Positions 55,212 through 55,688 of a stretch of DNA of 64,000 bases are shown here, one piece after another. The number at the start of each line of letters is the position of its first letter. The stretch's first letter is position 1. Location of the stretch: the NCBI GenBank assembly GCA_019385495.1, contig GCA_019385495.1_4102.1; one strand, 5' to 3'. A program made the position numbers and the translations under genes. This DNA is from a phage. The notes beneath the pieces are model-generated. The model was not told the origin of the DNA. It saw only the letters and a program-made list of their open reading frames with translations, and searched no databases.

Positions 55212-55688
55212 ATGATACATGAACACAGAGGTAATCTGTTTGAATTGTTCAGTACTGTTACCGATGATCAAAATGCATTACATATTATTGCTCACGGATG
55301 TAATGCTCAAGGTAAGATGGGTTCTGGTTTCGCAAAGGAACTAAGGAATCGCTACCCAATGGCATACGACGATTATAAAGAATATGAAAAGAAAATGGGT
55401 TTTCTAAGAACCGGACAAATTGCATATTCAGCAATTAATGATGATTTGATTGTCGCAAACTGTATCACTCAAAAATGGTACGGAACAGATGGTGCAAAAT
55501 ACGTAAGTTATGATGCAATCGACGATGTGTTCATACATCTAAATTATTTTTGTAAAGTTGATCGAGATGTTCATGTACACTTTCCGAAAATTGGAGCCGA
55601 TTTGGGCGGTGGTAACTGGAACGTTATCAAAGAAATCATTGATCACCGTCTGGTCAATGCAGAAAAACACTTATATATTCTAAAATAA
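55212..55688 (+). CDS. macro domain protein (ADP-ribose binding/processing)
   Basis: HIIAHGCNAQGKMGSGFA and VHFPKIGADLGGGNW resemble macro-domain signatures. Confidence 0.65.
   Translation: MIHEHRGNLFELFSTVTDDQNALHIIAHGCNAQGKMGSGFAKELRNRYPMAYDDYKEYEKKMGFLRTGQIAYSAINDDLIVANCITQKWYGTDGAKYVSYDAIDDVFIHLNYFCKVDRDVHVHFPKIGADLGGGNWNVIKEIIDHRLVNAEKHLYILK

What the first reader, a model, noticed from the sequence alone, without database searches (positions are those of the whole stretch)
55212..55688. Macro domain protein next to the Nudix and glutaredoxin genes
Macro-domain signatures (NAQGKMGSGFA, FPKIGADLGGGNW) point to a protein that binds or removes ADP-ribose. Together with the Sir2-Nudix pair and the second Nudix gene, this window holds an unusually complete set of ADP-ribose writers, erasers and hydrolases for a phage.
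Basis: partly seen in the sequence, partly recalled or inferred. Interest (0 to 1): 0.55.

Follow-up and report, generated by a model that had tools for sequence, protein, structure and literature searches.

The report
Phage macrodomain, likely anti-DarT eraser
This is a real but already-annotated macrodomain gene of a 121Q-like jumbo coliphage; it most likely strips ADP-ribose off phage DNA to defeat the bacterial DarTG2 defence, as its T4 relative Tk.4/AdfM is thought to do, and nothing shows that it forms one system with the distant Sir2 and Nudix genes.

Summary
The ORF at 55212..55688 (+, 158 aa) is real, has a GGAG ribosome-binding site, and is under purifying selection (dN/dS 0.06-0.17). 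The window is an Asteriusvirus jumbo coliphage, about 99% identical to slurp01, G17 and 121Q. The gene is 121Q gp544, already annotated "macro domain-containing protein".

It shares invariant His28, Asn31, Gln87 and Gly128 with SCO6735, an enzyme shown to cleave thymine-linked ADP-ribose from DNA. It also falls in PHROG 335 with T4 Tk.4/AdfM, whose deletion sensitises T4 to DarTG2. It has no DarT partner and no DarG C-terminal domain.

Best reading (about 0.6): an orphan antitoxin-like DNA ADP-ribosylglycohydrolase that counters DarT2.

The "complete ADP-ribose system" idea is not supported as a unit:
- Sir2-Nudix lies 40.6 kb away.
- The Nudix-glutaredoxin neighbourhood reflects whole-block collinearity in Rak2-like phages.
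- Such gene sets were already described for jumbo phages in 2021.

Ordinary finding; a new member of a known kind.

The parts
55212..55688 (+). Macrodomain gene (158 aa plus stop); orthologue of phage 121Q gp544
55202..55205 (+). Shine-Dalgarno-like GGAG, 6 nt before the ATG
   Evidence: Read directly from the sequence. An RBS is annotated at the same place in phage UE-S1.
55172..55201 (+). Terminator-like hairpin (9-bp stem, 5-nt loop) plus T-run, between the upstream small ORF and the macro gene
   Evidence: Consensus scan: 8 terminator-like sites against 2.5 expected in the region. Annotated as a putative terminator (ARNOLD, -13.5) at the equivalent place in phage G17. Function inferred, not shown.
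55293..55334 (+). Loop 1 of the ADP-ribose pocket: H28-G-C-N31-A-Q-G-K-M-G-S-G39-F-A41
   Evidence: H28, N31 and G39 are invariant in 50 homologues. They align with His24 and Asn27 of SCO6735. N27S in SCO6735 nearly abolishes activity; H24Y also did, but through misfolding (PMC9411070).
55458..55475 (+). N83-C-I-T-Q87-K88: strand end carrying the catalytic-position residue (Gln87, codon 55470-55472)
   Evidence: N83 and Q87 are invariant. Q87 aligns with Gln85 of SCO6735 and with the catalytic Lys of M. tuberculosis DarG. SCO6735 Q85A is dead. T4 Tk.4 has Gln here too.
55581..55619 (+). Loop 2 (phosphate-binding loop): F-P125-K-I-G128-A-D130-L-G-G-G-N-W
   Evidence: P125 and G128 are invariant. 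G128 corresponds to SCO6735 Gly126. D130 sits where SCO6735, BT1257, DarG and TARG1 have Gly (SCO6735 Gly128; G128E lowers activity). In the phage family this column is G 23, D 16, V 8 of 50.
55286..55540 (+). Gene-internal patch of high, mostly synonymous divergence from the closest phages
   Evidence: 14.5% different from 121Q and PBECO4 and 9.8% from slurp01, while the 600-nt flanks differ by 0-1.2%. dS 0.29-0.53, dN/dS 0.06-0.09.

Best explanation
The gene encodes a stand-alone, catalytically competent macrodomain of the TARG1/DarG/SCO6735 (ALC1-like) class. It is the Asteriusvirus counterpart of the phage 'anti-DarT factor macro' (AdfM) proteins.

Proposed mechanism:
1. On infection of an E. 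coli strain carrying a DarTG2 toxin-antitoxin defence, the DarT2 toxin ADP-ribosylates thymines in single-stranded phage DNA and blocks replication.
2. The phage macrodomain binds the ADP-ribosyl-thymine.
3. Asn31 holds Gln87 in position (both invariant), as Asn27 and Gln85 do in SCO6735.
4. A water-mediated, lysine-independent reaction hydrolyses the N-glycosidic link, releasing free ADP-ribose and restoring the base.

The protein thus acts as an orphan antitoxin: it has the enzymatic half of DarG but no toxin partner and no DarT-binding C-terminal domain.

Shown here: the ORF, the fold, the class, conservation of the key residues, co-membership of a phage protein family with T4 Tk.4, purifying selection, and orphan status.

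Inferred: the substrate (thymine-linked ADP-ribose on DNA), the in vivo target (DarT2), and any hand-over of the released ADP-ribose to the phage Nudix enzymes.
For: Fold and class:
- AF2 model pLDDT 95.2, pTM 0.90.
- Foldseek top hits are BT1257 (TM 0.82), Poa1p, SCO6735, T. aquaticus and M. tuberculosis DarG, and TARG1.
- Family profile against PDB: BT1257 5e-28, SCO6735 4e-22, DarG 1.8e-16.
- DarG is the only PADLOC defence-system model hit (E 3.4e-10). NCBIfam antitoxin_DarG matches positions 18-139 of its 338-position model.

Residues:
- H28, N31, Q87 and G128 are invariant in 50 homologues.
- They align with His24, Asn27, Gln85 and Gly126 of SCO6735.

Biochemistry of relatives:
- SCO6735 removes DarT-made thymidine-ADP-ribose from DNA faster than DarG or TARG1 and rescues cells from DarT. 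Q85A is dead and N27S nearly dead (PMC9411070).

Phage genetics:
- T4 tk.4 was the single hit in a transposon screen on a DarTG2 host. A clean knockout sensitises T4, and the gene was named adfM (bioRxiv 10.1101/2025.11.20.689424).
- PhiKZ gp104 AdfM removes DarT2 marks from DNA in vitro and protects the phage (PMC13309987).

Link to this gene:
- 31% identity to T4 Tk.4, pairwise E 4e-12, with all motifs shared, including Gln at the catalytic position.
- Both proteins fall in PHROG 335.

Orphan status:
- The flanking ORFs are 72-125 aa with no Pfam hit. The protein has a single domain.
- Homologues sit in mobile elements with unrelated neighbours, one beside the anti-Gabija gene Gad2 in a T5-like phage and one on a RepA/TraG contig.

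Host relevance:
- E. coli strains carry macrodomain-type DarTG (abstract of PMC7003065).

Maintained function:
- dN/dS 0.06-0.17.
Against: - No assay exists for this protein or any Asteriusvirus orthologue. The Sharanji genome paper does not discuss the gene.
- Identity to the two validated phage AdfMs is low: 31% to T4 Tk.4 (47 bits) and 31 bits to PhiKZ gp104.
- For T4 Tk.4 only genetics is published, in a preprint. Enzymatic removal from DNA is the authors' inference.
- D130 replaces a Gly that is conserved in SCO6735, BT1257, DarG and TARG1. Mutating it to Glu lowers SCO6735 activity. Against this, the column is variable across the phage family.
- The DNA-positioning Lys34 and Lys89 of SCO6735 are not at the same positions here (S38 and a shorter loop), although K35 and K88 are adjacent.
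- The protein is mildly acidic (pI 6.3), whereas SCO6735 (9.85) owes part of its DNA activity to an electropositive groove. Both validated phage AdfMs are acidic too.
- SCO6735 and TARG1 also act on Glu/Asp-linked protein ADP-ribose and uracil-linked RNA ADP-ribose, so DNA need not be the only or the main substrate.
Confidence: 0.6

Rival explanations
1. A broader or different eraser. The enzyme removes ADP-ribose mainly from substrates other than DNA thymine: Glu/Asp-linked protein ADP-ribose or uracil-linked RNA ADP-ribose laid down by other host ADP-ribosyltransferase toxins or defence systems, or by phage-encoded transferases.
For: The closest characterised enzymes are multi-substrate. SCO6735 and TARG1 hydrolyse Glu/Asp-ADP-ribosylated proteins and U-ADP-ribose on ssRNA (PMC13036486). 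The lineage-specific D130 and K88 next to the active-site loop and Gln, and the acidic net charge, could shift preference away from DNA.
Against: SCO6735 strongly prefers DNA-T-ADPr over protein in competition. The only in vivo phenotypes known for phage members of this class are against DarTG2. SCO6735 is inactive on guanine-linked DNA, 2'-OH RNA and 5'-phosphate-linked marks in assays. No phage ADP-ribosyltransferase was seen in the window annotation.
Confidence: 0.15
2. A Poa1p-like ADP-ribose-1''-phosphate phosphatase. This is the origin of the database labels 'phosphatase' and 'Appr-1-p processing'. It would clear a by-product of NAD+-dependent 2'-phosphate removal during RNA repair, fitting the phage's RNA-repair genes.
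Against: Poa1p lacks the family-invariant N83, Q87 and G128: it has C, S and N at those columns. Two of the three Poa1p residues for which mutant structures were deposited are not conserved (S30 aligns with K35, F152 with G132); what those mutations do was not checked, because the Poa1p paper is not held in the library. The roughly 25-residue Poa1p insertion is absent. No KptA/Tpt1 gene is annotated in the window. T4-type RNA repair leaves no 2'-phosphate (established knowledge of T4 Pnkp/Rnl1).
Confidence: 0.08
3. The macrodomain works with the phage Sir2 and Nudix enzymes: it deacylates O-acyl-ADP-ribose made by Sir2 or degrades ADP-ribose-derived immune signals, and the Nudix enzymes then split the ADP-ribose.
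For: Sir2 (PF02146, 3.6e-20), a Nudt16-like Nudix overlapping it by 4 nt, a cREC domain gene, and a second Nudix are all in the window. PDB depositors name TARG1 'O-acetyl-ADP-ribose deacetylase 1'. Iyer et al. 2021 propose such Macro/NADAR/cRec-to-Nudix flows in jumbo phages. The Nudix-Grx-macro order is kept from E. coli to Xanthomonas Rak2-like phages.
Against: Sir2-Nudix is 40.6 kb away, in a separate tight block. A terminator-like hairpin and two unrelated ORFs separate the macro gene from Nudix-Grx. The conserved order is part of a longer collinear block that includes structural genes, so it is not specific evidence. T4, the T5-like phage and the plasmid homologues have the macro gene without Sir2, Nudix or Grx neighbours. 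1785 phage records carry the macro gene. No writer is demonstrated.
Confidence: 0.1
4. A non-catalytic ADP-ribose binder: a reader or sponge that sequesters ADP-ribose-containing molecules (for example Thoeris-type signals) or binds and inhibits DarT directly without hydrolysis.
For: D130 occupies a position where Gly-to-Glu impairs SCO6735. SCO6735 Q85A still inhibits DarT by interaction. Macro domains act as signal receptors in type II Thoeris ThsA.
Against: The residues needed for catalysis in SCO6735 (Asn27 and Gln85 equivalents) are invariant across 50 homologues. That is unexpected for a mere binder. T4 Tk.4, with Gly at the D130 column, and the Asp-type proteins share everything else.
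Confidence: 0.05

Closest known systems
T4 Tk.4 / AdfM (anti-DarT factor macrodomain; bioRxiv 10.1101/2025.11.20.689424)
   Same: A stand-alone phage protein of about 155 aa in the same PHROG 335. Shared motifs are IAHGCN, MGSG(F/V)A, N-x-x-T-Q and P-(K/R)-IGA-x-(L/I)-G-x-GNW. Gln, not Lys, at the catalytic position. Mildly acidic. No toxin partner.
   Different: Only 31% identity (47 bits). Tk.4 has Gly where this protein has D130. Its loop after the Gln is 4 residues shorter. The genomic neighbourhood differs: Tk.4 lies between tk.3 and vs. Tk.4 has a DarTG2 phenotype; this protein is untested.
Streptomyces coelicolor SCO6735 and Bacteroides BT1257 (PDB 5E3B, 2FG1): the Gln-type subclass of ALC1-like macrodomains
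   Different: The bacterial proteins are chromosomal and basic (pI 8.7-9.9 against 6.3). Gly128 is replaced by D130. Lys34 and Lys89 are not at the same positions. About 23-27% identity in structural alignments.
DarG antitoxin of DarTG2 (M. tuberculosis, T. aquaticus; PDB 5M3I, 5M3E) and chimallivirus AdfM (PhiKZ gp104)
   Different: DarG and PhiKZ gp104 use Lys at the catalytic position (FPTK) and a PPLG-x-x-NGGL loop 2. This protein has Gln and PKIGADLGGG. DarG has a C-terminal DarT-binding domain and an adjacent darT gene, both absent here. NCBIfam gives 31.5 bits against a cut-off of 250. PhiKZ AdfM is imported into a phage nucleus, which Rak2-like phages are not known to build (own knowledge).
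Human TARG1 (C6orf130)
   Different: TARG1 uses a Lys84/Asp125 dyad. Here the Lys position is Gln87, and the only acidic residue in loop 2 (D130) lies two positions before the TARG1 Asp in my own register with the TARG1 loop recalled from memory (not a tool result).
Yeast Poa1p (ADP-ribose-1''-phosphate phosphatase; PDB 6LFQ-6LFU)
   Different: It lacks the family-invariant N83, Q87 and G128. It carries a roughly 25-residue insertion. S30 and F152 are not conserved here.

Membership tests
Macrodomain superfamily | Three-layer alpha/beta/alpha macro fold | tested here: met
Macrodomain superfamily | Pfam PF01661 above the gathering threshold | tested here: not met
   17.7 bits against a cut-off of 22, E 0.0036. 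Many homologues do carry a precomputed PF01661 hit, so this is a sensitivity limit rather than evidence against.
Macrodomain superfamily | Binds ADP-ribose | not testable with these tools
   Pocket loops 1 and 2 are conserved. D130 sits at a normally Gly position. Needs ITC or a co-crystal.
ALC1-like (TARG1/DarG/SCO6735) macrodomain class | Closer in sequence and structure to TARG1, DarG and SCO6735 than to the MacroD, macroH2A, PARG or SUD-M classes | tested here: met
SCO6735/BT1257 subclass (Gln type) | Gln at the position of the TARG1/DarG catalytic Lys, held by the loop-1 Asn | tested here: met
   Q87 and N31 are invariant in 50 homologues and align with Gln85 and Asn27.
SCO6735/BT1257 subclass (Gln type) | Mobile loop about five residues longer than in DarG/TARG1 | tested here: inconclusive
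   Residues between the Gln/Lys and the conserved Tyr: 12 here, 13 in SCO6735, 14 in BT1257, 10 in Mtb DarG, 8 in T4 Tk.4. This protein is intermediate and nearer the long type.
SCO6735/BT1257 subclass (Gln type) | Gly at the SCO6735 Gly128 position of the phosphate-binding loop (conserved in SCO6735, BT1257, DarG, TARG1) | tested here: not met
   D130 here. In the phage family the column is G 23, D 16, V 8, and E, T, S 1 each, of 50.
SCO6735/BT1257 subclass (Gln type) | Electropositive DNA-binding surface with Lys34 and Lys89 | tested here: not met
   S38 aligns with Lys34, and the Lys89 position falls in the shorter loop. K35 and K88 are adjacent. pI 6.28 against 9.85. Only net charge was computed, not a surface potential.
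Phage AdfM (anti-DarT factor macro) | Phage-encoded stand-alone DarG2-like macrodomain without a cognate DarT or a DarT-binding domain | tested here: met
   A 158-aa single domain. Neighbouring ORFs are 72-125 aa with no Pfam hit. DarG model matched only over its macro part.
Phage AdfM (anti-DarT factor macro) | Homology to a validated AdfM | tested here: met
   T4 Tk.4: BLASTP 31% identity, E 4e-12. Both fall in PHROG 335 (1.3e-44 and 1.3e-65). PhiKZ gp104 is weaker at 31 bits.
Phage AdfM (anti-DarT factor macro) | Removes DarT2-made thymine ADP-ribose from ssDNA | not testable with these tools
   Needs a gel-shift de-ADP-ribosylation assay.
Phage AdfM (anti-DarT factor macro) | Needed for phage growth on DarTG2-carrying hosts | not testable with these tools
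   Needs a knockout phage and plaque assays.
DarG antitoxin (NCBIfam NF048014) | Full-length two-domain protein scoring above the equivalog cut-off, encoded next to darT | tested here: not met
   31.5 bits against a cut-off of 250. Only model positions 18-139 of 338 are matched. No darT-sized neighbour.
Poa1p-type ADP-ribose-1''-phosphate phosphatase | Conservation of the Poa1p residues for which mutant structures were deposited (H23, S30, F152) and of the Poa1p-specific insertion | tested here: not met
   H23 corresponds to H28 and is kept. S30 aligns with K35 and F152 with G132. The insertion is absent. Poa1p lacks N83, Q87 and G128.

The most novel reading that the evidence does not exclude
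The Asp-type variant of the phosphate-binding loop (IGADLGGG) occurs in 16 of the 50 aligned homologues, including most of those at least 52% identical to this protein. Together with Lys88 next to the catalytic-position Gln, it might mark a change of specificity. On this reading the enzyme erases a different ADP-ribose linkage, or degrades an ADP-ribose-derived immune signal, rather than thymine-linked DNA marks. Free ADP-ribose would then pass to the nearby NudE-like Nudix, giving a previously undescribed two-step counter-defence or NAD-recycling route in jumbo phages.
Probability: 0.1. Interest if true: 0.6.

Novelty: new member of a known kind. Interest (0 to 1): 0.28.

Why it matters
If the assignment holds, 121Q-like jumbo coliphages, which are being considered for therapy, carry a ready-made enzymatic counter to DarTG2. 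The Gln-type (SCO6735/T4 Tk.4-like) macrodomain would then be a very widespread orphan-antitoxin counter-defence, present in 1785 of 50,697 phage records. This would correct the uninformative 'phosphatase' and 'Appr-1-p processing' labels these genes carry in databases. It would also give a natural Gly-to-Asp variant of the phosphate-binding loop on which to test the proposed lysine-independent mechanism. The gene itself is not a discovery: it is already annotated as a macro domain in several GenBank records.

Tried and rejected
1. Pfam alone gives a sub-threshold Macro hit. I did not rely on it.
3. Full DarG antitoxin membership is rejected: far below the NCBIfam cut-off, no C-terminal domain and no darT neighbour.
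4. Poa1p-type phosphatase is considered unlikely from the residue comparison. The Poa1p structure paper is not in the held library, so the effect of its mutants could not be checked.
5. An operon with Nudix-Grx is not supported. A terminator-like hairpin and two unrelated ORFs lie between, and the synteny is whole-block collinearity only.
6. The sigma-70 promoter scan was uninformative: 31 sites found against 30.7 expected.
7. PHROG and Pfam scans of the five small flanking ORFs gave only unknown-function families.
8. Positive selection as the cause of the local divergence is rejected, because the changes are mostly synonymous.
9. Net charge as a discriminator of DNA substrates is not informative, because both validated phage AdfMs are acidic too.
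10. LeRoux et al. 2022 (PMC9250638) could not be read. DarTG2 facts come from papers citing it.
11. A literature search for Asteriusvirus plus DarTG found only the Sharanji genome paper, which does not mention the macro gene.
12. A 2026 preprint on Thoeris mentions macrodomains only as the ThsA receptor, so it is not relevant to phage macro genes.
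Full report
**What is there.** The window is a segment of an Asteriusvirus (Rak2-like) jumbo coliphage. The 4.5 kb around the finding is 99.0% identical to phages slurp01, G17 and Sharanji and 98.7% identical to 121Q. It is the orthologue of 121Q gp544. The gene is therefore real but not new.

**Is it a macrodomain?** Pfam alone is not enough: PF01661 scores 17.7 bits, below the cut-off of 22. Everything else agrees.
- Sequence matches to solved structures: BT1257 (2e-14), SCO6735 (4.8e-10), yeast Poa1p (1.5e-7) and M. tuberculosis DarG (0.01).
- A 50-sequence family profile sharpens these to 5e-28, 4e-22, 2.2e-16 and 1.8e-16, with TARG1 at 6e-13. No MacroD-type chain reaches E 0.01.
- The AlphaFold2 model is confident (pLDDT 95.2, pTM 0.90).
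- Foldseek gives TM 0.82 to BT1257.

The class, however, is TARG1/DarG/SCO6735 (ALC1-like), not MacroD.

**Active-site anatomy.** Across 50 homologues sharing 34-86% identity with this protein, the invariant residues are H28, N31, G39, Y55, N83, Q87, G91, P125 and G128. In HMMER and MAFFT alignments:
- H28, N31, Q87 and G128 correspond to His24, Asn27, Gln85 and Gly126 of SCO6735.
- Q87 sits at the position of the catalytic Lys of DarG (FPTK).

The SCO6735 paper (PMC9411070) shows that this enzyme removes DarT-made thymidine-linked ADP-ribose from DNA faster than DarG or TARG1 and rescues cells from DarT. Q85A is inactive, N27S is nearly so, and Gly126/Gly128 lie in the phosphate-binding loop. 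The alignment splits the class into two types:
- Gln type (HxCN, N-x-x-T/G-Q, P-K/R-I-G): this protein, 121Q, Salmonella phage SE_PL, T4 Tk.4, BT1257 and SCO6735.
- Lys type (FPTK, PPLG): Mtb DarG and PhiKZ gp104.

**Deviations from SCO6735.**
- D130 replaces the Gly128 that SCO6735, BT1257, DarG and TARG1 share. G128E lowers SCO6735 activity. In the phage family this column is G 23, D 16 and V 8 of 50, so it is tolerant. Asp is found in most of the homologues at least 52% identical to this protein, and in three more distant ones.
- The DNA-positioning Lys34 and Lys89 are not at the same positions, although K35 and K88 are adjacent.
- The loop after the Gln is 12 residues, against 13-14 in SCO6735/BT1257, 10 in DarG and 8 in T4 Tk.4.
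- The protein is mildly acidic (pI 6.3 against 9.85). So are both validated phage AdfMs, T4 Tk.4 (5.9) and PhiKZ gp104 (5.05).

**Link to known phage biology.**
- Two recent studies assign a role to phage macrodomains of this class.
  - A transposon screen of T4 on a DarTG2-expressing host found a single hit, tk.4. A clean knockout sensitised T4, and the gene was named adfM (bioRxiv 10.1101/2025.11.20.689424).
  - PhiKZ gp104 (also named AdfM) removes DarT2 marks from DNA in vitro and is required on DarTG2 hosts (PMC13309987).
- I fetched T4 tk.4. It is 31% identical to the window protein (pairwise E 4e-12) and shares all motifs, including the Gln.
- Both proteins fall in PHROG 335 (1.3e-44 and 1.3e-65).
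- DarG is the only model of the PADLOC defence library that the window protein hits (3.4e-10).
- The NCBIfam DarG equivalog matches only over its macro part, at 31.5 bits against a cut-off of 250.
- There is no second domain, and no darT-sized neighbour: the flanking ORFs are 72-125 aa without any Pfam family.

All this fits the "orphan antitoxin" pattern described for the NADAR counterpart AdfN (PMC11825919).

**Context.** Upstream lie a CCA-adding enzyme, a Nudix gene (53981..54382), glutaredoxin (54384..54632) and two small unknown ORFs. A 9-bp hairpin with a T-run follows at 55172-55201; phage G17's authors annotated the equivalent site as a terminator. Downstream lie three small ORFs, the gp13-like neck protein, dNMP kinase and the tail sheath. 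The same order is kept in Salmonella phage SE_PL (60% identical macro protein) and in Xanthomonas phage XaC1 (46%). It is part of a long collinear block that includes structural genes, so it does not argue for a Nudix-Grx-macro functional unit. Elsewhere the macro gene has other neighbours:
- T4: between tk.3 and vs.
- A T5-like phage: beside the anti-Gabija gene Gad2.
- A RepA/TraG plasmid- or ICE-like contig.
- A further contig with no informative neighbours.

The Sir2 gene (13840..14598), a Nudt16-like Nudix overlapping it by 4 nt (14595..15146) and a cREC domain gene (15156..15476) form their own tight block 40.6 kb upstream. Iyer et al. 2021 (PMC7824862) already describe Macro, NADAR, cRec, Nudix and SIR2 as a recurrent NAD+/ADP-ribose theme in jumbo phages. 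Their SIR2 and NADAR example accessions fall in the same series as the Ecwhy_1 proteins seen. This accession-series assignment to Ecwhy_1, an Asteriusvirus, is my inference. The "unusually complete set" is thus neither unusual nor shown to be one system, and no ADP-ribosyltransferase was seen in the annotation of the window's counterpart in 121Q.

**Selection and mosaicism.**
- Against 121Q, the 477-nt gene carries 42 of the 57 differences in 4.5 kb.
- No phage record is more than 93.3% identical to the gene, although its flanks are about 99% identical to the same phages.
- The differences cluster at 55286-55540: 9.8-14.5% against 0-1.2% in the 600-nt flanks.
- They are mostly synonymous: dS 0.29-0.53, dN/dS 0.06-0.09 against close relatives and at most 0.17 overall.

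I read this as a gene-internal recombination patch from a diverged allele, in a gene that is kept functional by purifying selection. It is not diversifying selection.

**Verdict.** It is wrong on class and over-reads the wider "system".

The best-supported mechanism is an AdfM-like orphan DNA ADP-ribosylglycohydrolase of the Gln (SCO6735/T4 Tk.4) type that reverses DarT2 modification of phage DNA. I put this at about 0.6. The weaker claim, that it is a catalytically competent ADP-ribose-removing macrodomain, I would put near 0.9.

Rivals are a different ADP-ribose substrate (0.15), cooperation with Sir2/Nudix (0.1), a Poa1p-like phosphatase (0.08) and a non-catalytic binder (0.05).

Novelty: a new member of a known kind. 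Interest is low to moderate. The only unusual details are the Asp in the phosphate-binding loop and the local mosaic patch.

Noticed in passing
window 55286-55540 (inside the macro gene): A local patch of 9.8-14.5% nucleotide divergence from phages whose flanking DNA is 99-100% identical. No phage record is more than 93.3% identical to this gene. The changes are mostly synonymous (dN/dS 0.06-0.09), so this looks like a gene-internal recombination patch from an unsampled allele.
   Followed up: partly
window 13840-15476: A tight three-gene block: Sir2 (PF02146, 3.6e-20), a Nudt16-like Nudix overlapping it by 4 nt (PF22327, 8e-19) and a cREC_REC 'cyclic-phosphate processing receiver' domain protein (PF20274, 1.5e-22). 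The PhoH-like gene follows shortly after, at 15836-17275. This is a candidate NAD+/ADP-ribose or RNA-repair module of the kind described by Iyer et al. 2021.
   Followed up: partly
window 56029-56406: The 125-aa ORF two genes downstream of the macro gene has no Pfam hit here (PHROG 14786, unknown function). Its orthologue in phage ph0011 is annotated 'aminoacyl-tRNA hydrolase', and the gene in the corresponding position of Xanthomonas phage XaC1 has a weak PF01981 (PTH2) hit.
   Followed up: no
window 55172-55201 and about 57468-57484: Terminator-like hairpins flank the macro-to-neck gene group. The first was found on the + strand by the scan. The second was found only on the - strand, but phage G17 annotates a terminator at about the same place. 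Terminator-like sites are enriched in 52500-58700: 8 found against 2.5 expected.
   Followed up: no
window about 13800-17300 compared with 121Q: The offset between window and 121Q coordinates changes by about 2 kb between the PhoH region (offset 206329) and the macro region (offset 204306). There are therefore insertions or deletions totalling about 2 kb somewhere between 17 kb and 54 kb of the window relative to 121Q.
   Followed up: no
L009 5868-6500 (T5-like phage contig, metagenome): A homologue of the macro protein (P0074, 45% identity) lies one small ORF away from a Gad2 anti-Gabija gene, in a region that also has cpYpsA and HD_4 genes. The family thus also sits in an apparent anti-defence region of an unrelated phage.
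   Followed up: no
L006/L007 (plasmid- or ICE-like contigs): A macro homologue (P0112, 41% identity, IGADRGGGNW loop) is encoded between RepA_C and TraG/TrwB-like genes. The family is therefore also carried by conjugative elements.
   Followed up: no
Outside the window (Asteriusvirus Ecwhy_1, by accession series): Iyer et al. 2021 cite QAY00367.1 as a jumbo-phage NADAR protein. Its accession series matches Ecwhy_1, whose macro protein is QAY00514.1 and whose SIR2 would be QAY00582.1. If so, this phage genus would carry both a NADAR (AdfN-like) and a macro (AdfM-like) eraser, as T4 does. I did not verify this by sequence.
   Followed up: no
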